Sequence record: OM386656.1
Direction: 5' to 3' (one strand)
Origin: Escherichia phage vB_EcoM_ESCO25
Length of the DNA stretch: 64,000 bases
Shown here: in pieces, positions 8,238 through 21,851 of the stretch
How positions within the stretch are numbered: position 1 is the first letter of the stretch
How the letters are laid out: the number at the start of each line of letters is the position of its first letter
Position numbers and translations under genes: made by a program
The notes under the pieces: model-generated
The model's database searches: none
The model's input: only the letters and a program-made list of their open reading frames with translations
Told to the model about the DNA's origin: nothing

Positions 8238-8759
8238 TTAACTCCCCTTTGGTAGATAGAAACCATGCACTTTATCTCGATAAACAAGACGCATATCACG
8301 CTCCCAGTGTGTCCTTATATTCCGTTTCTTGAAGTATAGAGCACCTTTAGTAACATCTAAAACAGACCGCAATTCAGGAAAATGTTTCTCTAAATAAAGT
8401 AAACGCTCCGCTATTGCTTTTGCTTCCTGCCACTTATCTTTCTCTGTCACGTTAAAAGTTTTCGCATATGAGAATTGCCCTTTCTGGAACAAGACTCCCT
8501 TGACTGTGTTAGGGAAGTAGGCATCATTTCTTCTGTTGATTACCACATTCCCAACGGCATTCATTCCTTTTTTACCCAGACCGCGACCTTCTGCGTAAAT
8601 TGCACAAGCTAATAGAATTTTATCATTATATTGCTTTGTACATTTGTGAACTACTTTAGCGGTTTTTACGTTTGCAGCTTCGGCTTTCGCCACAACAGGT
8701 GTAAATGTAAAAGCAGTTAAGGATAGTAACGCAACTGTTACAAAGTTTTTTATCAGCAA
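8238..8759 (-). CDS. SleB-like cell-wall hydrolase with signal peptide
   Basis: TTG start with GGAGG 6 nt upstream; N-terminal signal peptide LLSLTAFTFTPVVAKA; LACAIYAEGRG...AVGNVVINRR matches the hydrolase_2 (SleB) core. Confidence 0.6.
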   Translation of the reverse strand: MLIKNFVTVALLSLTAFTFTPVVAKAEAANVKTAKVVHKCTKQYNDKILLACAIYAEGRGLGKKGMNAVGNVVINRRNDAYFPNTVKGVLFQKGQFSYAKTFNVTEKDKWQEAKAIAERLLYLEKHFPELRSVLDVTKGALYFKKRNIRTHWERDMRLVYRDKVHGFYLPKGS

Positions 8760-8859: not shown

Positions 8860-9462
8860 TTATGGACATTCATACCATTCTTTTTTACCACCGAAGGCCA
8901 TCACCACATCGCAAATATCCAGACCAGCTTTACCTACACCATATGCTTTCAGCTTCCATTCTCCATCTTCACGAACCAGGGAAGCCACGTGGCAGATTGT
9001 GTTGCCAGCTACTTCAGGAGCCAGGAAGTCAAAATCCAGAATTTCCACATTGCGCTCGGAGTCGAAGATTTTAAGCATACCTTCAGAAGCATGACCAAAA
9101 CGTTTCAGACCTGTATCATCATCAATGGTCAGAACAAAGGCAATCTCTTGTGCATCAGGAGAGATTTTAGCCAGAGTAATATCAATCTGCTCCATGCTGC
9201 CAGTTCCATCACGAACATCGTCACCAGCGAAGGTAGAACGTTCAGGATCAAACTTGTTAGCATAGCAAACCAGATGACGTGCAGACAGCATTTCAGGATT
9301 GCCAGCGGCATTGTGACGACAAACCAGTGCACTTACATCCAGATCCAGTTTAGAATCAGATTTCCAAGAGAATTCCAGACGCAGTTCTTTCAGAGCCGGA
9401 GCAACTTTCTTCAGGGAAATTTTTTCGCTAGAACCTTTTTTCAGGGAAATTTTATCAGTCAT
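8860..9462 (-). CDS. terD: TerD-family stress protein
   Basis: 200 aa; N-terminal KISLKK repeats, then LDLDVSAL, GDDVRDGTG, EIAFVLTIDD and REDGEWKLKAYGVGKAGL matching the TerD/TerE/TerZ fold signature. Confidence 0.8.
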   Translation of the reverse strand: MTDKISLKKGSSEKISLKKVAPALKELRLEFSWKSDSKLDLDVSALVCRHNAAGNPEMLSARHLVCYANKFDPERSTFAGDDVRDGTGSMEQIDITLAKISPDAQEIAFVLTIDDDTGLKRFGHASEGMLKIFDSERNVEILDFDFLAPEVAGNTICHVASLVREDGEWKLKAYGVGKAGLDICDVVMAFGGKKEWYECP

Positions 9463-9477: not shown

Positions 9478-9747
9478 TTATTTAAGTGTAATACCAGTTA
9501 CAGTCAATTCTACTTCCAAAAGCTTAGATGTGTTTTGGATTGATACTAATTGTGCATGATGGTTTAGTTCTACAGCAGAATAATCATTTTCCCCATCATC
9601 TACTTTTAAATAAACAATGATTTCACTAAGGTCTAAACCATTTTCGTCAAATGCATTTTCATAGACGAAAGTATCTCCTACATCCAAATCTTTAATGGTA
9701 AGGCATCGTTTATTTACTTTTTGCTCATCAATTTCGAAGTTTAACAC
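9478..9747 (-). CDS. hypothetical protein, paralog of 10769..11065
   Basis: 89 aa; shares DLDVGDTFVYENAFDENGLD and C-terminal LEVELTVTGITLK with 10769..11065 (DLGIGATFMYYDAYEDAGLD, VEVDLEVTNITLK). Confidence 0.55.
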   Translation of the reverse strand: MLNFEIDEQKVNKRCLTIKDLDVGDTFVYENAFDENGLDLSEIIVYLKVDDGENDYSAVELNHHAQLVSIQNTSKLLEVELTVTGITLK

Positions 9748-9976
9748 TTCTTCCTCCTAATGTTATCTCCGGTTTGTATATACGAAGAATTATAGCATTT
9801 TCATTTTCTTTGTCAACCCATTCTTCATAATCAGGCCATACATGAATCTCTACTCTACTTACAATATCTTCCATTCGCACAGTCCCAATGAAATACTCTT
9901 TGAGACTGCGCATAATGAAAGCTTCTCTCTCGCGCCAATAATTTTCTATGACTTGAGAGGCAAGCTCGTCGATCAT
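9728..9976 (-). CDS. hypothetical protein
   Basis: 82 aa ORF in operon. Confidence 0.5.
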   Translation of the reverse strand: MIDELASQVIENYWREREAFIMRSLKEYFIGTVRMEDIVSRVEIHVWPDYEEWVDKENENAIILRIYKPEITLGGRSVKLRN

Positions 9977-10767
9977 TTTTTAGCACCTACTTTAACAACC
10001 CACTCTCCGAACTCTTCAGATAAGAGTTTGTCATAAAGCTCTGAATCTGTCAAGTCTAAATCTTTAATGCCAATAAAACCAACATTATCATAAGCATTTG
10101 CCAGTTCTTTCAGGAAGCCAAACTTCTCATTACCAACGCCAACCATGAACCAATAAATAGGTTTATTCTTATTCTCTTCAATAAGACGACGAACAGCACT
10201 AGGATCACCATTCTCACCATCCGTCTGGAAGAATACAACACCAGGGGTAACGTCAGCACCTGGTTCAGACACAGCTACAACCTTTTCACGCTCTACAGAT
10301 ACTGTTTCAGTTTTACCAAGCAGACGATTAAAGAAGCCTTTCTTTGGAGCCTCCTCTTGTACCACTTGTTTAGTGGTAATATATTTGGTAACAGTGCCAA
10401 AATACTCATCGTAGATATCTGCCATTACAGGGGCGTAATTTGTTCCACCTCCGATACGAACATTGCGCATACATTTACCAACATAGTCATCGTAAACGTC
10501 TGCTGTTGCTGGAGTAAGCTCTTGGGAACTCGTATTGAAGGCCCACATATCAATTTGTTGATTATCGTCGAACAGCATACCAAAAGGAAGCAGTTTACCT
10601 ACAAAATCACTCACTACCCCACTAGAATATAGACCATGCATACTACCAGAAATATCTAGAGCACATGCTACACGAAGAACAATCTTACCTTCATTCAGGT
10701 TCTTATTCTTTTTCAGAGAGAAAGCAAGGTTTTCTTGACGTTTTTTCAGGCTGATTTTCTCGGACAT
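9973..10767 (-). CDS. von Willebrand factor A (vWA) domain protein, TerY-like, with TerD-like ISLKK N-terminus
   Basis: 264 aa; N-terminal KISLKK...FSLKK, then a MIDAS-type ACALDISGSM (DxSxS), GGGTNYAPVM and VVFFQTDGENG. Confidence 0.7.
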   Translation of the reverse strand: MSEKISLKKRQENLAFSLKKNKNLNEGKIVLRVACALDISGSMHGLYSSGVVSDFVGKLLPFGMLFDDNQQIDMWAFNTSSQELTPATADVYDDYVGKCMRNVRIGGGTNYAPVMADIYDEYFGTVTKYITTKQVVQEEAPKKGFFNRLLGKTETVSVEREKVVAVSEPGADVTPGVVFFQTDGENGDPSAVRRLIEENKNKPIYWFMVGVGNEKFGFLKELANAYDNVGFIGIKDLDLTDSELYDKLLSEEFGEWVVKVGAKK

Positions 10768-10768
10768 A

Positions 10769-11065
10769 TTATTTCTCCTTCTTAAGTGTAATATTGGTAA
10801 CTTCTAAATCTACTTCCACCATATTTGTATCTGGCGGGATGCAATGAGTATAGCCTCGTTGTGCTAGTGATCCATTAATACAGATCGCACTGTTTGTGGA
10901 ATTTTTAATGAACACCAAGTTACGGTAGGTATCCAACCCTGCGTCTTCATAGGCATCATAATACATGAATGTGGCCCCTATGCCAAGATCTTCGAAAGCA
11001 ATAGGTAAATCCTGACACTTTTCTTCTTGAATATTGAATCTAAACACGCATACCTCCTCTACCAA
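10769..11065 (-). CDS. hypothetical protein, paralog of 9478..9747
   Basis: 98 aa; see paralog motifs above. Confidence 0.5.
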   Translation of the reverse strand: MVEEVCVFRFNIQEEKCQDLPIAFEDLGIGATFMYYDAYEDAGLDTYRNLVFIKNSTNSAICINGSLAQRGYTHCIPPDTNMVEVDLEVTNITLKKEK

Positions 11066-11603
11066 TTTTGAAGCCCAAATCGTAAGCTTCTTTAGTGATC
11101 TTTTGCAACTCGCTTATAGGAAGTGTTACAAGAGGATCATCTTCTTCAATTTCCATCTTGTCATCTTCTGTTTCAATGAGAGTATTATGCACTTTATGAT
11201 AAGGGTTGTCAACACGTTTAAACTTATTCTTTTCTGTGCTGAAGAAACAATCTGGATCTTCTTCACCATCACCCCAACCTTGATTAGGATCTCTGTCAGA
11301 TTGTTCTGTAGGGATCTCACCTGTAAAGTACTCTTCCAGCACCATAGCGATGCCGTCCCTTGGATTTGAGGAATGCATCAAATCACAAACCTTACTCCAA
11401 TCCATAGCCCAGTCGAACCGTTCACGAACGCCATTTTCATCCTCTTTTCCAGAGAAAACACAACCATAACTATCATAGTTGCCATACATCTCTTCAATAA
11501 CAACACCGTCCTTCAAAAGAAAGAGGTAGCAAGGTGATCCGTCGAAAGAAGTAGAAAGGGCAGCTTTGCCCGATTCTTTGCACAAAAAGCTAAAACAACC
11601 CAT
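11040..11603 (-). CDS. hypothetical acidic protein
   Basis: 187 aa ORF; Asp/Glu-rich. Confidence 0.5.
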   Translation of the reverse strand: MGCFSFLCKESGKAALSTSFDGSPCYLFLLKDGVVIEEMYGNYDSYGCVFSGKEDENGVRERFDWAMDWSKVCDLMHSSNPRDGIAMVLEEYFTGEIPTEQSDRDPNQGWGDGEEDPDCFFSTEKNKFKRVDNPYHKVHNTLIETEDDKMEIEEDDPLVTLPISELQKITKEAYDLGFKIGRGGMRV

Positions 11604-11972: not shown

Positions 11973-12169
11973 TACTCCTCCTCCTCATTGAAGTCAATAT
12001 CTGCAAGGAGTTCGAATTTACGGAAGTTACGACAACCTTCATAAATATAACAATCACGACAAACTGCTAGAACACTTGGGGGATATATGCCTCCCATCGG
12101 CGCGAATCGTTTTTCGTCATCATAACGGACACCAATGTCCTCATCAATTATATAGATACGGATTCTCAT
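11972..12169 (-). CDS. hypothetical protein (Cys-containing)
   Basis: 65 aa ORF. Confidence 0.45.
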   Translation of the reverse strand: MRIRIYIIDEDIGVRYDDEKRFAPMGGIYPPSVLAVCRDCYIYEGCRNFRKFELLADIDFNEEEE

Positions 12170-13278
12170 TTACCAAGCCCTCGTTTCACAGCAGCTACCA
12201 TCCCGTCTTCCAAAGATTGAACTTCATTAATATAATCAACACGAGCAGCACGGGCTTCCGTATTGATGCGGTTAGTTTCTTCCAACATCTTAACCAAGTT
12301 TTCCTGATCGTGACGCAGAGTTTCAATATCCAACACTTGACGGTTAGCCAGTGCTGCTGCTTCGATCTGATTCTGTGTGGCAAGATCGCTACCCAGTTTA
12401 ATTGCCAGGTTAAATTCATCAAGAACGTTATTCTGCGTCTCTGCTGCTTTCATTTGACGTAAGCTCTCGATATACATTGAGAAGTTAGCAGAGTAAGCAG
12501 GAATAACATTATTTACTATGTTACGCGCAGATCGCATTAAGCTTGCAGAAACTTTTTGCATACCTTGTACACGCGGTCCCATTTGGACACACAGTAGGCG
12601 CAATGCTTTTAAATCTGCAATACGAATCTCCAGAAGATCCAAAGTATCTCGGATCACTTGTCGCTGTTCTACTGCATCTTCTGGAAGAGCAGCCAAAGCT
12701 TGTTCTTCTTTTTCATAGGTTGCTGTTAGAAGCTGCATATCTCGGTTCAAACTTGCAGCATATTGTCCAATAGCTTGATGTAGCTTTTCAAGATATACCA
12801 AGGAATCTTCTTCTTTGCGAATATCCATTTGAAGGTTTTTTACCAACTCTTCAATACGGTTATTAACATTATCAAACTCCCCAAACAGATCTTCTTTCAT
12901 ACCCATAACTTTTTTAATGAGTTTAGTAATACCCTTGCTTTGTTTAATAGAGTTTGGATCAAGTTGTTTTGCCTGTTTAATCAAAGCTGTGAGTCGTTCA
13001 CTCATCTGATCGCCTTGATTACTACGTTGATGTTTTAATACCTCGGCATTCAAGGAACGCAAGGTTGTTCCTGCCTCTGCCCCAATCTCTTCGATCTCCT
13101 GTCGGGTCATAGAAGGCAAAACTGGAACTTCTTGCGGTGCCGCTGGTGCATAAACAGGACTGGCATCTAACACGCTTGGAGCGAATACAGATTTACTTGC
13201 ATCTGTTGTTGCAGCAAATACGCTCATTTCAGGTTTCTTCTGACAGCCAGTAGCTGCTTTTAAAAATGGACTTGTCAT
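12166..13278 (-). CDS. TelA-like toxic-anion-resistance family protein
   Basis: 370 aa, predicted all-helical; N-terminal EIEEIGAEAGTTLRSLNAEVLKHQRSNQGDQMSERLTALIKQAKQLDP parallels the conserved TelA/KlaA N-terminal block. Confidence 0.6.
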   Translation of the reverse strand: MTSPFLKAATGCQKKPEMSVFAATTDASKSVFAPSVLDASPVYAPAAPQEVPVLPSMTRQEIEEIGAEAGTTLRSLNAEVLKHQRSNQGDQMSERLTALIKQAKQLDPNSIKQSKGITKLIKKVMGMKEDLFGEFDNVNNRIEELVKNLQMDIRKEEDSLVYLEKLHQAIGQYAASLNRDMQLLTATYEKEEQALAALPEDAVEQRQVIRDTLDLLEIRIADLKALRLLCVQMGPRVQGMQKVSASLMRSARNIVNNVIPAYSANFSMYIESLRQMKAAETQNNVLDEFNLAIKLGSDLATQNQIEAAALANRQVLDIETLRHDQENLVKMLEETNRINTEARAARVDYINEVQSLEDGMVAAVKRGLGK

Positions 13279-15490: not shown

Positions 15491-16465
15491 TTAAACAGTA
15501 GCTTCTTCTTTTTCAGGGAAGATAAAGCTTGCAATAACACCAAGAGATAATGTGCCTAGAACAATCATCAGACTTACGTTAGGGGAAATATCATGCGGGA
15601 GGAATGACCACTTGGCATGAAGTGTTTCACCGAACGGGTGATACATAAGTTTAGCACCAACAAACACCAGAACCACAGCAACAGCTTTCTCTAAGTGAAC
15701 CAGATATTTCACAGCTACACTTAACACAAAGAAAAGTGCACGTAAACCAAGAACAGCCATCAGCATTGCAGAATAAACTAGCAGAGGTTCTTGTGTCACA
15801 CCGATCACAGCCGGAACTGAATCAAAAGAGAAGACAATATCTGTAAGCTCAATAACAAACACACAAAGAAGAGCAGGAGTTGCATATTTAATACCATTCT
15901 TAATGGTGATGAACTTTTCACCATCCAGTGCATTGTGCACAGGCAGAACTTTACCTACTAAACGAACAGCCCAATGTTTAGAGTAATCAATATCCTCTTC
16001 TTTGTCACCACCTTTGATGATAGCCACGGCAGACCAAGCTACAATCAAACCGAACAACACTTGGACCGACCAATGAAGGTTAAACAAAGCGGTCCCTGCT
16101 GCAACAAAAATACCTCGGAAGACAATGGCTCCTGCAATCCCCCAAAGTAGAATCTTATGTTGGAGATGTGTGCTCTTAATTCCAAAGCTTGCAAAAATTG
16201 CCATGAACACCATTAGGTTATCTACAGAAAGACTCTTTTCCAACACATAGCCACTTAGGAAAAGCGCGGCAAACTCTTTACCATGTTCTACCCAAATGAA
16301 TGCGTAATACCCTAAAGCTAAAGCAATCCAAAAAACAGACCAAAGCAAAGCAGATTTAATTCCAATTTCTTTATTCTCTTTATGACCAAAGAAATCGATA
16401 CCAATAGACAATGCTAAAATACCAACTAAAACAACTACATCAATAATTGGGAAACCGAGTTGCAT
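15491..16465 (-). CDS. terC: TerC-family integral membrane protein
   Basis: 324 aa, multiple transmembrane helices; LSGYVLEKSLSVDNLMVFMAIF and downstream helices match the TerC/Alx signature (LSxDNxxVF). Confidence 0.8.
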   Translation of the reverse strand: MQLGFPIIDVVVLVGILALSIGIDFFGHKENKEIGIKSALLWSVFWIALALGYYAFIWVEHGKEFAALFLSGYVLEKSLSVDNLMVFMAIFASFGIKSTHLQHKILLWGIAGAIVFRGIFVAAGTALFNLHWSVQVLFGLIVAWSAVAIIKGGDKEEDIDYSKHWAVRLVGKVLPVHNALDGEKFITIKNGIKYATPALLCVFVIELTDIVFSFDSVPAVIGVTQEPLLVYSAMLMAVLGLRALFFVLSVAVKYLVHLEKAVAVVLVFVGAKLMYHPFGETLHAKWSFLPHDISPNVSLMIVLGTLSLGVIASFIFPEKEEATV

Positions 16466-16778: not shown

Positions 16779-17252
16779 TTAAAGTTTATAAATAGTCACA
16801 TCGTGACCTGTTTTTACTAAAGTTTCTTCAATCATCACTTGGATGATAGCCCAATTACCTCCGGCATGTCCCGCTCCAATCATAGGTAAACCGATCTTAC
16901 ATTTTTGGTCACGGAGAAGCAAATCATTAGCCATAGCTATTAGTGCATCGTAAAGTGCATCATAGTCCAACTGACGACCTTTAGCATTGTATCCGTAACG
17001 GTATTGCCCGTATAGATTATATACCAAAGGGTCTGATTGTTCGTCTGGCACCCCTAAACTAAAAGAACCTAACTTACTTTGATCACCAGCCATTGTGTCT
17101 AAATCTGCCGCATATGCATAAGGGAATGCTCGTTTAATTTGCGGAGCAATTCCTGCTCCCATATTACACATACAATTGCAACAATGAGCAATAACAGTTA
17201 CTTCACCTGCTTTAGCGGCATCAATAAGATTACCTGTTTTCATTTTAAGCAT
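16779..17252 (-). CDS. macro domain protein (ADP-ribose binding or hydrolysing)
   Basis: Start set at MLKMK with AAGGAG RBS; VIAHCCNCMCNMGAGIAPQIKRAFP and GLPMIGAGHAGG resemble the macro-domain Gly-rich loops. Confidence 0.65.
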   Translation of the reverse strand: MLKMKTGNLIDAAKAGEVTVIAHCCNCMCNMGAGIAPQIKRAFPYAYAADLDTMAGDQSKLGSFSLGVPDEQSDPLVYNLYGQYRYGYNAKGRQLDYDALYDALIAMANDLLLRDQKCKIGLPMIGAGHAGGNWAIIQVMIEETLVKTGHDVTIYKL

Positions 17253-17265
17253 TTTTAGCTCCTTA

Positions 17266-18093
17266 TTACAGAATGTGTTGTTTTGTGTAACGATCCAAGA
17301 ATTCAAAGTTTTCAGCATACTTTGAAATTCGGTTGTAACCTTCTCCCAAACATCCGAAGAAAAGTTGCTCTACATAGTAGTGTGGCAATTGGCTAAGAAT
17401 GATTTTGAAGTCTTCGTGATTTTGGCCCATAAGATACTTAATAGGACGAACAAGACACTGTGCATCACGTTCTTCATTAATCATTTTAACAAACGCTTCT
17501 GGTGTATTGATGTAGTTAAAATTCAGTTTAGCTTCAGTATCTGCTTGATTACCTTCATATTTTGCAAAATACAAGAAGTAAACATCATTTTTAACTTGAT
17601 TTTCATCAAGAATCTCAATCAGTTTGTCTTCATGAGTTCCGGTGATATTTACATCATCAATGAACACAAGCTTCTTATCACCCCAGAATTCTTTGTTGCA
17701 GTAGAATGTATCCCCATCAATAAGTTTCTTACGACTAGCTTTATCCAAGAAACCATAATCGTTGATATAGCTAACTTTACGATGAATAATATCCAGTTCT
17801 GCTGAACGACCTTGATCATATTGTGCTTGCAACATATTAAAGTAATTAATAAAATGATCTGTCATCATTGTTGCAGCATTGTGCACATGGTTATAAGGAG
17901 AAGGGATGATAACAAATTGTTCCCCAATATGTTTCATTGCCACTTGAGCAAAAAACTGAAGTACCAATTCTTTACCCATACGACGCGCAGCTTGGTTACT
18001 ACCAAATTTCAATTTTGAATAGTCTTTGATATCAAAAGTAGCAGTTTCCAGGTCATCAAATTTATTTGCAAAAATTTGAGTTTGATTACGCAT
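17266..18093 (-). CDS. phosphoribosyltransferase-like protein (type I PRTase motif)
   Basis: 275 aa; KKLVFIDDVNITGTHEDKL resembles the PRPP-binding motif (hydrophobic-DD-x-ITTG-T). Confidence 0.45.
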   Translation of the reverse strand: MRNQTQIFANKFDDLETATFDIKDYSKLKFGSNQAARRMGKELVLQFFAQVAMKHIGEQFVIIPSPYNHVHNAATMMTDHFINYFNMLQAQYDQGRSAELDIIHRKVSYINDYGFLDKASRKKLIDGDTFYCNKEFWGDKKLVFIDDVNITGTHEDKLIEILDENQVKNDVYFLYFAKYEGNQADTEAKLNFNYINTPEAFVKMINEERDAQCLVRPIKYLMGQNHEDFKIILSQLPHYYVEQLFFGCLGEGYNRISKYAENFEFLDRYTKQHIL

Positions 18094-19569: not shown

Positions 19570-20040
19570 CTAATCTGATTGCCAACCACTCGCCGTTTTG
19601 GTCCATAATCTTTGATTATCTGACCCTCTGAAAGGTTTTGTGGTTGGATTGTTTATTTCATACTTTCCGTCTACAATAATGTCAACAAGATTTTTAATAT
19701 ACAAAGGCACTTCCTCAAAAGTATATCCTGTATACACCATTATATCTTTGCTTGACCCATAAACGTCTCTAACCTTTTCTATAAGGTTTTTAACATTGTA
19801 AATATTCTGCGGATCTAATGGTTCTCCTCCTAAAATTGTTAAACCTTTTACAAACGGTCTTGACAAATCTTTTAAAACTTGCTCTACATTTTCGTTAGTG
19901 AACGGTTTCCCATAAGAATAAGACCAGGCTTTCTGGTTAAAACAGCCACGACAACCGTGGCTACAACCACTAACCCAGAGGGAGCACCTAACTCCCTCAC
20001 CATTAATAAGATCTACAGGTTCATATCCTGCAAAATTCAA
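19570..20040 (-). CDS. nrdG: anaerobic ribonucleotide reductase activating protein (radical SAM)
   Basis: 156 aa; CSLWVSGCSHGCRGCFN cysteine cluster; overlaps nrdD by 4 nt. Confidence 0.85.
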   Translation of the reverse strand: MNFAGYEPVDLINGEGVRCSLWVSGCSHGCRGCFNQKAWSYSYGKPFTNENVEQVLKDLSRPFVKGLTILGGEPLDPQNIYNVKNLIEKVRDVYGSSKDIMVYTGYTFEEVPLYIKNLVDIIVDGKYEINNPTTKPFRGSDNQRLWTKTASGWQSD

Positions 20041-21851
20041 AGATGTTTCTCCCTTTGCAAAACTTCCTGCATTTTACCTTTGTTATAAGGCCGTGAATTA
20101 GGGGCAGAAAGATACCCTGATACACGTCTAACTACAGAAATAGTTTCTTCTTCATGGTTGCCACAATTAGGACACTCAAACCCTTTAGCCGTTGCCTTAA
20201 ATTCTCCATGAAAACCACACTTAAAGCATTGATCCACGGGCTGATTAATACCAAAATAGTGAATATGTTCATAAGCGTAGTCTACTAAAGTCTCCAAAGC
20301 TTCTAAGTTATTCTTTAAGTTTGGTGTTTCGACATAACTTATGTTACCACCATTGCTAATCTGTGCAAAACCTGCTTCATAATCCCATTTTTCAAAAGGA
20401 TTTGTTACCAACCATACAGGTTGATGAAAAGAATTAGTAAGATAGTCTCTTTCTACCAGACCTGGATATTTTTCATTTAAAGCTGTTGCAAATTTATAGC
20501 ACAAGGATTCTGCTGGAGTTCCATAAAGACTAAATGCCAACTTAGATCGTTCTTTAAACACAGCACACACATCTTTCATATGTTGCAGAATGTTTTTACC
20601 TAGTTCCTTTTTATCTTTTTCCTCTGGATAAAGGATTTCCAAAGCTTCGGCAAGACCTACATAACCAATACTAATAGAAGCATAACCACCTTCAAACAAA
20701 GCACCAATTTCATCGTTGGCATTTAAACGCGCTAAAGCCCCTTCCATGAAAAGAATAGGGTTTTCAGATGCTTTGGTATGTCTGATACGGTTTACACGTA
20801 GCATGTGAGCATCGTAGGCTATCTCCATATGTTTATTAAGAAGATCGGTGAAAGATTCTCCTTTACTTCTCGCTTCCGCAGCAATCAGAGGCAAGTTGAT
20901 AGAAACTACTCCAAGGTTGAATCGTCCATCATATTTTTCTCCTTGTTCGGTGGCATAGTACGACAAAAAGGAACGACAACCCATACTCGTAACGGTACCA
21001 TCTGCTGATCCCGTAACTTCTTTGTTCAAAGGAACAGAAATAAAATCTGGATAAATACGATCAGCACAACATGCCAAAGCTTGTTGCTTAAGGTCGTAGT
21101 TAGGATCACTAGGTTTCATGTTAACACCTTCTTGTAAAAAGAAAATAACTTTAGGGAATACAGGCGTTACATGATCTTTACCTAGACCGTTACTATGCAC
21201 TTTAAGATAGTTAGCTGTGATCATTCTGCCAAAAACAGAGGTATCCAGACCCATACTGATTGTAATAAAAGGAGATTGTCCATTAACACTCATTAAAGTG
21301 TTAACCTGATACAAAAGAGTTTGCATAGCGTCATATACATCTTGTTCGGTCATTTCTAGGGCTTCTTTCCTTGCATAACAACCGTAGCGACGTTTGGTTA
21401 TCTCCATGTTTTTAAGGAAACTGGCTTCAACATAAGGACTAAGACCTTTATCAATGTGCGCACACGTCTGACCTCCATACTGACTGGAGGCAACAGCTTG
21501 GATGATTTGAGTTAGCACTGTAGTAGCTACTCCAATAGATTTTGGTTTTTCTATCTGTGCAGCACCGATCTTAAAACCATTCTCTAACATATCTTGATAA
21601 TTAACAAGACAACAGTTTGTAAGAGGAGAGAGCAGATAATCCAAGTCGTGAATATGTCCAAAACCTTCTGTATGCCATTCTGACAAGTTTTTTGGCAGTA
21701 TCTGTGTCATTGCCATATGTTTGCTTAAAATCCCCGCCAAGAGATCCCTGTGCGTGTTAACAAGGTGGGAAGGTTTGTTTGCATTCTCTCTAGTGTATGT
21801 TTCTGAAGTGCGATCTAAAAAAGAAAAAACATCTTGGTACAAATCTTTCAT
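20037..21851 (-). CDS. nrdD: anaerobic ribonucleoside-triphosphate reductase (class III)
   Basis: 604 aa; C-terminal zinc ribbon CFKCG...CPNCG and glycyl-radical motif RRVSGYL. Confidence 0.9.
   Translation of the reverse strand: MKDLYQDVFSFLDRTSETYTRENANKPSHLVNTHRDLLAGILSKHMAMTQILPKNLSEWHTEGFGHIHDLDYLLSPLTNCCLVNYQDMLENGFKIGAAQIEKPKSIGVATTVLTQIIQAVASSQYGGQTCAHIDKGLSPYVEASFLKNMEITKRRYGCYARKEALEMTEQDVYDAMQTLLYQVNTLMSVNGQSPFITISMGLDTSVFGRMITANYLKVHSNGLGKDHVTPVFPKVIFFLQEGVNMKPSDPNYDLKQQALACCADRIYPDFISVPLNKEVTGSADGTVTSMGCRSFLSYYATEQGEKYDGRFNLGVVSINLPLIAAEARSKGESFTDLLNKHMEIAYDAHMLRVNRIRHTKASENPILFMEGALARLNANDEIGALFEGGYASISIGYVGLAEALEILYPEEKDKKELGKNILQHMKDVCAVFKERSKLAFSLYGTPAESLCYKFATALNEKYPGLVERDYLTNSFHQPVWLVTNPFEKWDYEAGFAQISNGGNISYVETPNLKNNLEALETLVDYAYEHIHYFGINQPVDQCFKCGFHGEFKATAKGFECPNCGNHEEETISVVRRVSGYLSAPNSRPYNKGKMQEVLQREKHL

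What the first reader, a model, noticed from the sequence alone, without database searches (positions are those of the whole stretch)
9478..11065. Duplicated two-gene unit: small paralog followed by an ISLKK-N-terminus protein (TerD versus vWA)
Genes 10769-11065 and 9478-9747 are paralogs (DLGIGATFMYYDAYEDAGLD / DLDVGDTFVYENAFDENGLD; C-terminal VEVDLEVTNITLK / LEVELTVTGITLK), and each sits immediately upstream of a protein that begins with repeated KISLKK (the vWA protein and TerD respectively). This looks like an ancient tandem duplication of a two-gene unit whose downstream partner then diverged, implying a functional pairing between the small protein and the TerD-type N-terminus.
Basis: seen in the sequence. 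Interest (0 to 1): 0.55.

Follow-up and report, generated by a model that had tools for sequence, protein, structure and literature searches.

The report
Duplicated small accessory gene in phage Ter module
Two small genes flanking the vWA gene of an E. coli phage's tellurite-resistance-like (Ter) gene cluster are true, old paralogs of a phage-only small beta-barrel protein, but only that one gene was copied, not a two-gene unit, and the shared KISLKK start of the two downstream proteins is an ordinary hallmark of their own families.

Summary
The proteins at 10769-11047 and 9478-9747 (minus strand) are paralogs: 30% identity, ungapped, E=1e-12, z=20.8 against shuffles, same PHROG. Each directly precedes a gene whose product starts with KISLKK.

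The interpretation mostly fails. The downstream genes are unrelated: a vWA-TerF-like protein (PF10138) and a TerD (PF02342). The [IV]SLxK start is found across each family, including bacterial homologs and phages that lack the small protein. In the vWA model it is a helix.

The window is a Phapecoctavirus carrying an abbreviated Ter system (PRTase, TerC, TelA, vWA, TerD). In 38 related loci the TelA...vWA-TerD core persists while the small gene varies:
- absent
- vWA-small-TerD, seen in three separate clades and likely ancestral
- small-vWA-TerD (phi92, 05F01)
- both positions (this phage)
- vWA-small-small-TerD

So the small gene was duplicated alone, at least twice.

Every family member whose context I saw lies next to vWA and/or TerD, which supports a link to the module. 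The AF2 model (pLDDT 83.5) is an acidic SH3-like small barrel with no informative structural match. I propose an adaptor or regulator role; this is inferred, not shown. Interest is modest.

The parts
10769..11047 (-). Small protein copy A (92 aa from GTG 11047; the ORF is open back to TTG 11065). Acidic small beta-barrel, phrog_11278. Sits upstream of vWA; its last codons (AAG AAG GAG AAA) carry the vWA ribosome-binding site.
9973..10767 (-). vWA-TerF-like protein, 264 aa. Complete MIDAS motif (D38xS40xS42, T109, D183). N-terminal KISLKK...FSLKK segment predicted as a helix (residues 7-20). Long beta-hairpin insert at residues 126-167.
9728..9976 (-). 82-aa ORF of unknown function (phrog_22387). 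Found only in phages that have both small copies. Overlaps the vWA stop (ATGA) and the start of copy B. Contains promoter P2.
9789..9816 (-). P2: perfect sigma-70 consensus promoter-like site (TTGACA-16-TATAAT with a TG extended -10), 41 nt upstream of copy B. Both hexamers are conserved 12/12 in three diverged two-copy phages.
9478..9747 (-). Small protein copy B (89 aa, GTG start after GGAGGA), paralog of copy A. Sits between vWA and TerD, the layout seen in the most diverged relatives.
8860..9462 (-). TerD-domain protein, 200 aa, with the standard TerD N-terminus (KISLKKG..KISLKK).
11184..11212 (-). P1: 11/12 sigma-70 promoter-like site (TTGACA-17-CATAAT) inside the 187-aa gene, 136 nt upstream of copy A. 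Conserved in phi92, phiWec190, L014 and L022.
11040..11603 (-). 187-aa ORF of unknown function (phrog_14928) upstream of copy A. Not related to the 82-aa ORF (hhalign probability 3%).
12166..13278 (-). TelA-like protein (PF05816); conserved upstream anchor of the module.
15491..16465 (-). TerC-family membrane protein, part of the same abbreviated Ter system.
17266..18093 (-). PRTase_3 (ComF-like phosphoribosyltransferase), a Ter-associated enzyme class.
8238..8759 (-). Cell wall hydrolase (PF07486); conserved downstream neighbour of TerD in nearly all related loci.

Best explanation
The window comes from a phAPEC8-like E. coli phage (Phapecoctavirus) that carries an abbreviated Ter stress/exclusion system: PRTase, TerC, TelA, vWA-TerF-like and TerD. 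The two small genes are paralogs of a phage-restricted family of acidic proteins of about 90 aa with an SH3-like small beta-barrel fold. This family is an optional accessory gene of the vWA-TerD pair.

The likely ancestral layout is vWA-small-TerD. In the ancestor of the phAPEC8/phi92 group the small gene alone was duplicated, and a copy landed in front of vWA. phAPEC8-like phages kept both copies and gained an 82-aa ORF with a strong promoter in front of copy B. phi92-like and 05F01-like phages lost copy B, and some relatives lost both.

The KISLKK N-termini are inherent features of the vWA-TerF-like and TerD families. They are not products of the duplication.

Mechanism (inferred, not shown): the small barrel is co-expressed with vWA and TerD and acts as an adaptor or regulator of the vWA/TerD assembly. 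Co-expression is suggested by tight spacing, overlapping stops and starts, and shared promoter-like sites. One concrete possibility is that its near-invariant exposed G-L-D loop supplies the acidic ligand for the intact MIDAS site of the vWA protein. After duplication the two copies may have specialised.
For: Shown:
- Identity of the phage: 99.9% to phage AV125.
- Paralogy.
- Domain assignments.
- The family is tiny and phage-only: 22 clusters among 5.8 billion sequences. The exhaustive HMM search of 1.84 billion representatives gave 21 hits: 17 full-length standalone proteins of 87-93 aa, 2 fragments of 54-55 aa, and 2 repeat-protein artefacts.
- Layouts in 38 loci plus the window: none; vWA-s-TerD (L010, L011, L013, L038); s-vWA-TerD (phi92, 05F01); both (window, phiWec190, PsgM04F, L007, L014); vWA-s-s-TerD (L035-L037).
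- vWA+TerD tree: the vWA-s-TerD layout occurs in three separate clades. L011 and L038 fall in a clade with 93% support. L013 and L035 fall in one with 100%. L010 joins the phAPEC8/phi92 clade at 60%. The two-copy clade has 99% support, with L015 (no copy) as sister at 89% and phi92 next at 72%.
- Small-protein tree: A clade 91%, B clade 78%, single-copy lineages outside.
- A and B are 26-43% identical to each other and 27-34% identical to L010.
- The N-terminal motif is family-wide.
- AF2 models: small protein pLDDT 83.5, vWA pLDDT 90 with residues 7-20 helical.
- MIDAS residues are invariant.
- Gene spacing and ribosome-binding sites. Conserved promoter-like sites.

Literature: abbreviated Ter operons in phages have been noted, with superinfection exclusion proposed as their role (PMC7824862; also PMC8386662).
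Against: - Deep nodes are weakly supported in both trees. These are NJ trees on about 90 aa; the L010 placement has 60% support and the 05F01 placement 43%. The timing and direction of the duplication are therefore a parsimony inference.
- No direct evidence of binding to vWA or TerD.
- The small proteins evolve much faster than their neighbours. Window versus L007: TerD 90%, vWA 83%, copy A 51%, copy B 47%. They are also often lost. That is unexpected for an obligate structural subunit.
- The promoters are consensus matches only.
Confidence: 0.62

Rival explanations
1. One reading: an ancestral two-gene unit (small gene plus a gene with a TerD-type N-terminus) was duplicated in tandem. One downstream copy then diverged into vWA and the other into TerD.
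For: - Both small genes directly precede a gene starting with KISLKK.
- A DNA direct repeat of about 80 nt at 76% identity spans the small gene's 3' end, the ribosome-binding site and the first 10 codons of the partner (D1 and D2).
- Each small gene is preceded by a sigma-70-like promoter.
Against: - vWA and TerD are different Pfam families and different folds, with no similarity beyond about 9 residues.
- They are adjacent without any small gene in many phages, and are fused in bacterial TerF-type proteins.
- The motif is family-wide in both families, independent of the small gene.
- phi92 and 05F01 have TerD with no small gene in front of it.
- The DNA repeat is explained by conserved amino acids and Lys AAA codons. 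The Ser codon of the motif is AGC in one copy and TCC in the other, and only about half of the synonymous sites in the C-terminal block agree (read).
Confidence: 0.04
2. The duplication was originally tandem (vWA-small-small-TerD, as in L035-L037). A later rearrangement moved one copy, or the vWA gene, to give small-vWA-small-TerD.
For: A tandem pair between vWA and TerD exists in L035-L037. The two members of that pair are only 32% identical, so the pair is old.
Against: The L035 lineage lies in a different, well-supported clade (100%) from the window. The vWA-proximal copy there (P0098) is no closer to copy A (23%) than to copy B (30%). No intermediate layout was seen in the phAPEC8/phi92 clade.
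Confidence: 0.1
3. The small genes have nothing to do with Ter function. They are fast-evolving accessory genes (for example anti-defence or host-takeover factors) that occupy a permissive, promoter-bearing insertion spot around vWA and TerD.
For: - They diverge much faster than their neighbours and are repeatedly gained and lost.
- Unrelated small ORFs occupy the same slots in L005 and L006.
- Strong promoter-like sites lie at these junctions even where no small gene is present.
Against: All family members seen are in this one neighbourhood across phages whose vWA is only 45-62% identical. That is hard to explain by hitch-hiking alone. The stop-start overlap with vWA in L010, L011 and L038 suggests coupled expression.
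Confidence: 0.2

Closest known systems
Abbreviated Ter (terZABCDEF/telAB-like) operons in phages, as described for jumbo and related phages (Iyer et al. 2021, PMC7824862) and for Klebsiella phage phiKp34 (PMC8386662)
   Same: The window has the same core set: TerC, TelA, a TerF-type vWA protein and TerD, plus a Ter-associated PRTase, all on one strand. The proposed role (membrane-linked stress response or superinfection exclusion) is taken from those papers.
   Different: The passages I read in those papers (text searches for TerD, TelA and vWA) do not mention a small beta-barrel accessory gene or its duplication. Here the vWA and TerD genes are separated or flanked by members of phrog_11278.
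TerF of the enterobacterial ter operon (TerD domain fused to a C-terminal vWA domain; PF02342 + PF10138)
   Same: The phage vWA protein belongs to the same vWA-TerF-like family. It keeps the [IVL]SLxK...LxK segment that in the fusions lies in the linker just before the vWA domain.
   Different: In the phage the TerD and vWA parts are separate genes, in the order vWA then TerD, with small genes between or in front of them.
SH3-like small beta-barrel adaptor domains (ribosomal L2 C-terminal domain, FeoA, DtxR/IdeR C-terminal domain, HspQ, Tudor, KOW)
PHROG family phrog_11278 (unknown function)
   Same: Both small proteins match it end to end, so the paralogy is already implicit in that clustering.
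   Different: The PHROG carries no function or context annotation. The link to vWA and TerD and the variation in position were worked out here.

Membership tests
phrog_11278 (small protein family) | Full-length match to the family profile | tested here: met
   Copy A 3.6e-48 (residues 8-98 of the TTG ORF to profile 2-92). Copy B 7e-45 (1-89 to 1-89).
TerD domain family (PF02342) | Match to the Pfam model above the curated cut-off, including the N-terminal strands | tested here: met
   98.9 bits against a cut-off of 25.3; residues 5-179 to profile 3-177. Homologous to solved TerD 2KXT (1.5e-15) and 3IBZ.
TerD domain family (PF02342) | Ca2+-binding sites as in the solved TerD structures | not tested
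   Residue-level comparison of the metal sites was not done.
vWA-TerF-like family (PF10138) | Match to the Pfam model above the curated cut-off | tested here: met
   130.1 bits against a cut-off of 29.4. Homologs all carry PF10138.
vWA-TerF-like family (PF10138) | vWA fold with a complete MIDAS motif (DxSxS, T, D) | tested here: met
   AF2 pLDDT 90, matching integrin I-domains and copine vWA. D38, S42, T109 and D183 are invariant and S40 nearly invariant in 23 homologs. Metal binding itself cannot be tested here.
Ter system (TerC/TelA/TerD/TerF-vWA core with nucleotide-derivative enzymes) | Co-located TerC, TelA, TerD, vWA and PRTase genes | tested here: met
   All are on the minus strand between 8860 and 18093. 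No TerB was seen among the ORFs scanned. Function in exclusion or stress cannot be tested here.
Tandem duplication of a two-gene unit | Both genes of the unit have a paralog in the second unit | tested here: not met
   The small genes are paralogs. vWA and TerD are unrelated apart from a 9-residue family-wide motif.
Tandem duplication of a two-gene unit | Relatives carry either one unit or two, never a split unit | tested here: not met
   vWA-TerD without a small gene, small-vWA-TerD, vWA-small-TerD and vWA-small-small-TerD all occur.
SH3-like small beta-barrel fold | Significant structural match to solved SH3-like barrels | tested here: inconclusive

The most novel reading that the evidence does not exclude
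The small acidic barrel is a dedicated subunit of the phage Ter module. It docks its conserved G-L-D loop into the MIDAS site of the TerF-type vWA protein and/or bridges vWA to TerD. The two copies in phAPEC8-like phages would then have split these roles: copy A with vWA, copy B with TerD from its own early promoter. If so, this would be the first defined protein-protein link inside a Ter system and a handle on how the vWA/TerD/TelA assembly is controlled during infection.
Probability: 0.15. Interest if true: 0.55.

Novelty: new variant of a known kind. Interest (0 to 1): 0.3.

Why it matters
Ter systems are widespread in bacteria, plasmids and large phages, but their mechanism is poorly understood. 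A small protein found only beside the vWA and TerD genes, and duplicated at least twice independently, is a cheap experimental entry point through pull-downs and deletions in well-studied coliphages such as phi92 and phAPEC8.

As it stands, the finding is mainly a tidy piece of comparative genomics. It shows a real paralog pair in a known phage module, with the original evolutionary reading corrected.

Tried and rejected
- Is the 82-aa ORF upstream of copy B a truncated paralog of the 187-aa ORF upstream of copy A, making a different two-gene unit? BLASTP gives E=0.014 over 31 aa and hhalign gives probability 3%. Rejected.
- Is the small protein derived from a TerD fragment? hhalign probability 0.1%. 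Rejected.
- Are the ORFs next to vWA in L005 and L006 very diverged family members? hhalign is negative.
- Recent gene conversion at the small-gene/partner junction, suggested by DNA repeats D1 and D2. Rejected on codon grounds: Ser is AGC in one copy and TCC in the other, and synonymous sites agree at about the chance level.
- afdb50 fold search: library not available.
- Scan of bacterial genomes with the family alignment: no block conserved enough to search with.
- The two long hits of the exhaustive search (P0096, P0099) are FN3/Ig/cadherin repeat proteins, so they are summed weak repeat matches.
- PADLOC gives nothing for the small proteins, vWA, TerD, TelA or TerC.
- Charge complementarity between the acidic small protein and the basic N-termini is real. 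But the basic N-termini are the same in phages without the small gene, so it does not discriminate.

Full report
**What is there.** All genes in this region lie on the minus strand. In the direction of transcription they are:
- SprT-like protein (13865-13275)
- TelA (13278-12166)
- three tiny ORFs
- a 187-aa ORF (11603-11040)
- small protein A (11047-10769)
- a vWA-TerF-like protein (10767-9973; PF10138, 1.6e-37)
- an 82-aa ORF (9976-9728)
- small protein B (9747-9478)
- TerD (9462-8860; PF02342, 3.2e-28)
- a cell wall hydrolase (8759-8238)

Further upstream on the same strand are TerC (16465-15491), a Macro-domain protein and a PRTase_3 enzyme (18093-17266). The region is 99.9% identical to Escherichia phage AV125 and 98-99% identical to many phAPEC8-like phages of genus Phapecoctavirus, subfamily Stephanstirmvirinae. 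Phage-borne abbreviated Ter operons of this composition have been noted before, and a role in competition with superinfecting phages has been proposed for them (PMC7824862; PMC8386662).

**Checking the observation.**
- The two small proteins align without gaps over 89 residues at 30% identity, E=1e-12.
- Their Smith-Waterman score lies 20.8 standard deviations above shuffles. Each is the other's only notable match in the window.
- Both match phrog_11278 end to end.
- The structure model of A finds B of phAPEC8 as its top viral match, TM about 0.8.
- The listed TTG start of A at 11065 is probably wrong. An in-frame GTG at 11047 follows AGGAGG by 5 nt, gives 92 aa, and agrees with orthologs and the PHROG profile.
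- A ends 1 nt before the vWA ATG, and its last codons contain the vWA ribosome-binding site. B ends 15 nt before the TerD ATG.
- The KISLKK starts are real. They are the only ISLKK occurrences in the six-frame translation.

**The two-gene-unit duplication does not hold.**

The downstream genes are not paralogs.
- They belong to different Pfam families.
- The vWA model (pLDDT 90) matches integrin I-domains and other vWA domains.
- TerD is homologous to the solved TerD structures 2KXT and 3IBZ.
- Apart from about 9 N-terminal residues (E=0.013) the two proteins share nothing.

The N-terminal motif is a hallmark of each family in its own right.
- In an alignment of 23 vWA-TerF-like proteins down to 29% identity, L7 and K9 are invariant and L18 and K20 nearly so. 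The alignment includes a Neobacillus protein.
- The same motif sits in the linker of bacterial TerD-vWA fusions, just before the vWA domain.
- In TerD the motif lies inside the Pfam model and aligns with VSLSKG..VSLSK of the solved protein. All phage TerDs examined have it.
- Phages with no small gene have the same basic KISLKK-type starts on both proteins.
- In the vWA model residues 7-20 (LKKRQENLAFSLKK) form a helix. From general knowledge of the TerD fold, the TerD motif belongs to the first strands of the beta sandwich; I did not model this here.

The direct DNA repeats across the two junctions (76% over 37 + 42 nt) are explained by conserved residues, the ribosome-binding site and AAA Lys codons. 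The motif's Ser codon is AGC in one copy and TCC in the other.

**What the relatives show.** The family is very small. The word-indexed search of 5.8 billion sequences found 22 clusters. An exhaustive profile search of 1.84 billion representatives gave 21 hits. Seventeen are full-length standalone proteins of 87-93 aa. Two (P0020, P0022) are 54-55-aa fragments. Two are repeat-protein artefacts.

I collected 38 loci from GenBank phages, from contigs that encode family members, and from IMG/VR contigs that encode vWA homologs. I labelled their ORFs with my own profiles. TelA, vWA and TerD recur throughout: vWA is present in every locus that reaches that position. A few distant loci lack TerD or TelA within the stretch fetched (L029, L031, L033; L030, L034). 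The hydrolase follows TerD in most of the closer relatives. The small gene varies:

| Layout | Loci |
|---|---|
| no small gene | L005, L006, L015, L019-L034 |
| vWA-small-TerD | L010, L011/L018, L012, L013, L038; probably L009 |
| small-vWA-TerD | phi92-like L001, L017, L022; Klebsiella phage 05F01 |
| small-vWA-82aa-small-TerD | window, phiWec190, PsgM04F, L007/L008, L014 |
| vWA-small-small-TerD | L035-L037 |

In a vWA+TerD tree:
- The middle position (vWA-small-TerD) occurs in three separate clades. L011 and L038 fall in one with 93% support. L013 and L035 fall in one with 100%. L010 joins the phAPEC8/phi92 clade at 60%.
- The upstream position is confined to Stephanstirmvirinae.
- The two-copy phages form a clade at 99%. 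L015, with no copy, is their sister at 89%. phi92 is next at 72%.

In the small-protein tree the A copies (91%) and B copies (78%) form separate clades, and the single-copy lineages fall outside them. A and B are 26-43% identical to each other and 27-34% identical to L010.

The most economical history has four steps:
1. The ancestral layout was vWA-small-TerD.
2. The small gene alone was duplicated to a site in front of vWA, at or before the base of the phAPEC8/phi92 group.
3. B was lost in phi92-like and 05F01-like phages, and both copies were lost in L015.
4. A separate tandem duplication occurred in the L035 lineage.

Deep nodes are weak, so the direction and timing are inferences.

**How it most likely works.**

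Shown:
- The family is confined to the vWA/TerD neighbourhood.
- The small genes are tightly packed with, or overlap, vWA and TerD.
- The vWA protein has an intact MIDAS motif.

Suggestive: conserved sigma-70-like promoters precede each small gene.
- A perfect TTGACA-16-TATAAT site with TG lies at 9816-9789, 41 nt before B. It is conserved 12/12 in three diverged phages.
- An 11/12 site lies at 11212-11184, 136 nt before A. It is conserved in phi92 and phiWec190.
- Similar sites precede TerD, or small-TerD, in relatives.

Inferred: the small barrel is co-expressed with vWA and TerD as an adaptor or regulator of their assembly. Its exposed acidic loop may serve as a MIDAS ligand.

Against an obligate structural role: the small proteins diverge much faster than their neighbours and are often lost. 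Window versus L007 gives TerD 90%, vWA 83%, A 51% and B 47%. The rival view, that they are unrelated accessory genes sitting at a permissive, promoter-bearing junction, cannot be excluded. Co-folding could not be run.

**Verdict.** The paralog pair is real, and its link to the vWA/TerD module is supported. The proposed duplication of a two-gene unit and the special meaning of the KISLKK N-termini are not. This is a known kind of phage module with a previously undescribed, duplicated accessory gene. It is a useful correction and a modest lead, not a surprising discovery.

Noticed in passing
window 9789-9816 (minus strand): Perfect sigma-70 consensus promoter-like site (TTGACA-16-TATAAT with a TG extended -10) embedded in the 82-aa ORF, 41 nt upstream of small gene B. 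Both hexamers are identical in phiWec190, L007 and L014 although the flanks differ.
   Followed up: partly
window 11184-11212 (minus strand): 11/12 sigma-70 promoter-like site inside the 187-aa gene, 136 nt upstream of small gene A. Conserved in phi92, phiWec190, L014 and L022.
   Followed up: partly
L035 4001-4546; L036 1180-1725; L037 257-802: A different phage lineage has two diverged family members (32% identity) in tandem between vWA and TerD. This is an independent duplication of the same small gene.
   Followed up: partly
window 9973-10767 (vWA protein residues 126-167): The AF2 model shows a long two-stranded beta-hairpin insert in the vWA domain (E126-141, E153-167). It is shorter or absent in more distant homologs of 230-250 aa.
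   Followed up: no
window 16779-17318 (minus strand): Macro-domain protein (Pfam Macro 9.6e-5; PADLOC DarG 2.6e-10) between the PRTase_3 and TerC genes. It may be an ADP-ribose-processing component of the phage Ter cluster or a counter-defence gene.
   Followed up: no
window 19570-21851 (minus strand): Anaerobic ribonucleotide reductase NrdD (604 aa) and its activase NrdG (156 aa) lie just upstream of the Ter-related block.
   Followed up: no
GenBank records MG065650, MG065639, MG065656, OR584014, MH252123: Records named Campylobacter phage B15/A150/C3, Pseudomonas phage PsgM04F and Klebsiella phage ZCKP1 are very close relatives of the E. coli Phapecoctavirus/Justusliebigvirus phages. B15 and ZCKP1 are about 98% identical in DNA to the window here. 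A150/C3 match like phi92, and PsgM04F has the phiWec190 gene layout. The host labels look doubtful.
   Followed up: no
window 9478-11047 versus L007: The small proteins evolve far faster than their neighbours. Window versus L007: TerD 90%, vWA 83%, copy A 51%, copy B 47% identity.
   Followed up: partly
L005 4653-4985; L006 5744-6094: In phages lacking the family, unrelated small ORFs (110 and 116 aa) occupy the same slots next to vWA. The junctions around vWA appear to be hot spots for small accessory genes.
   Followed up: partly
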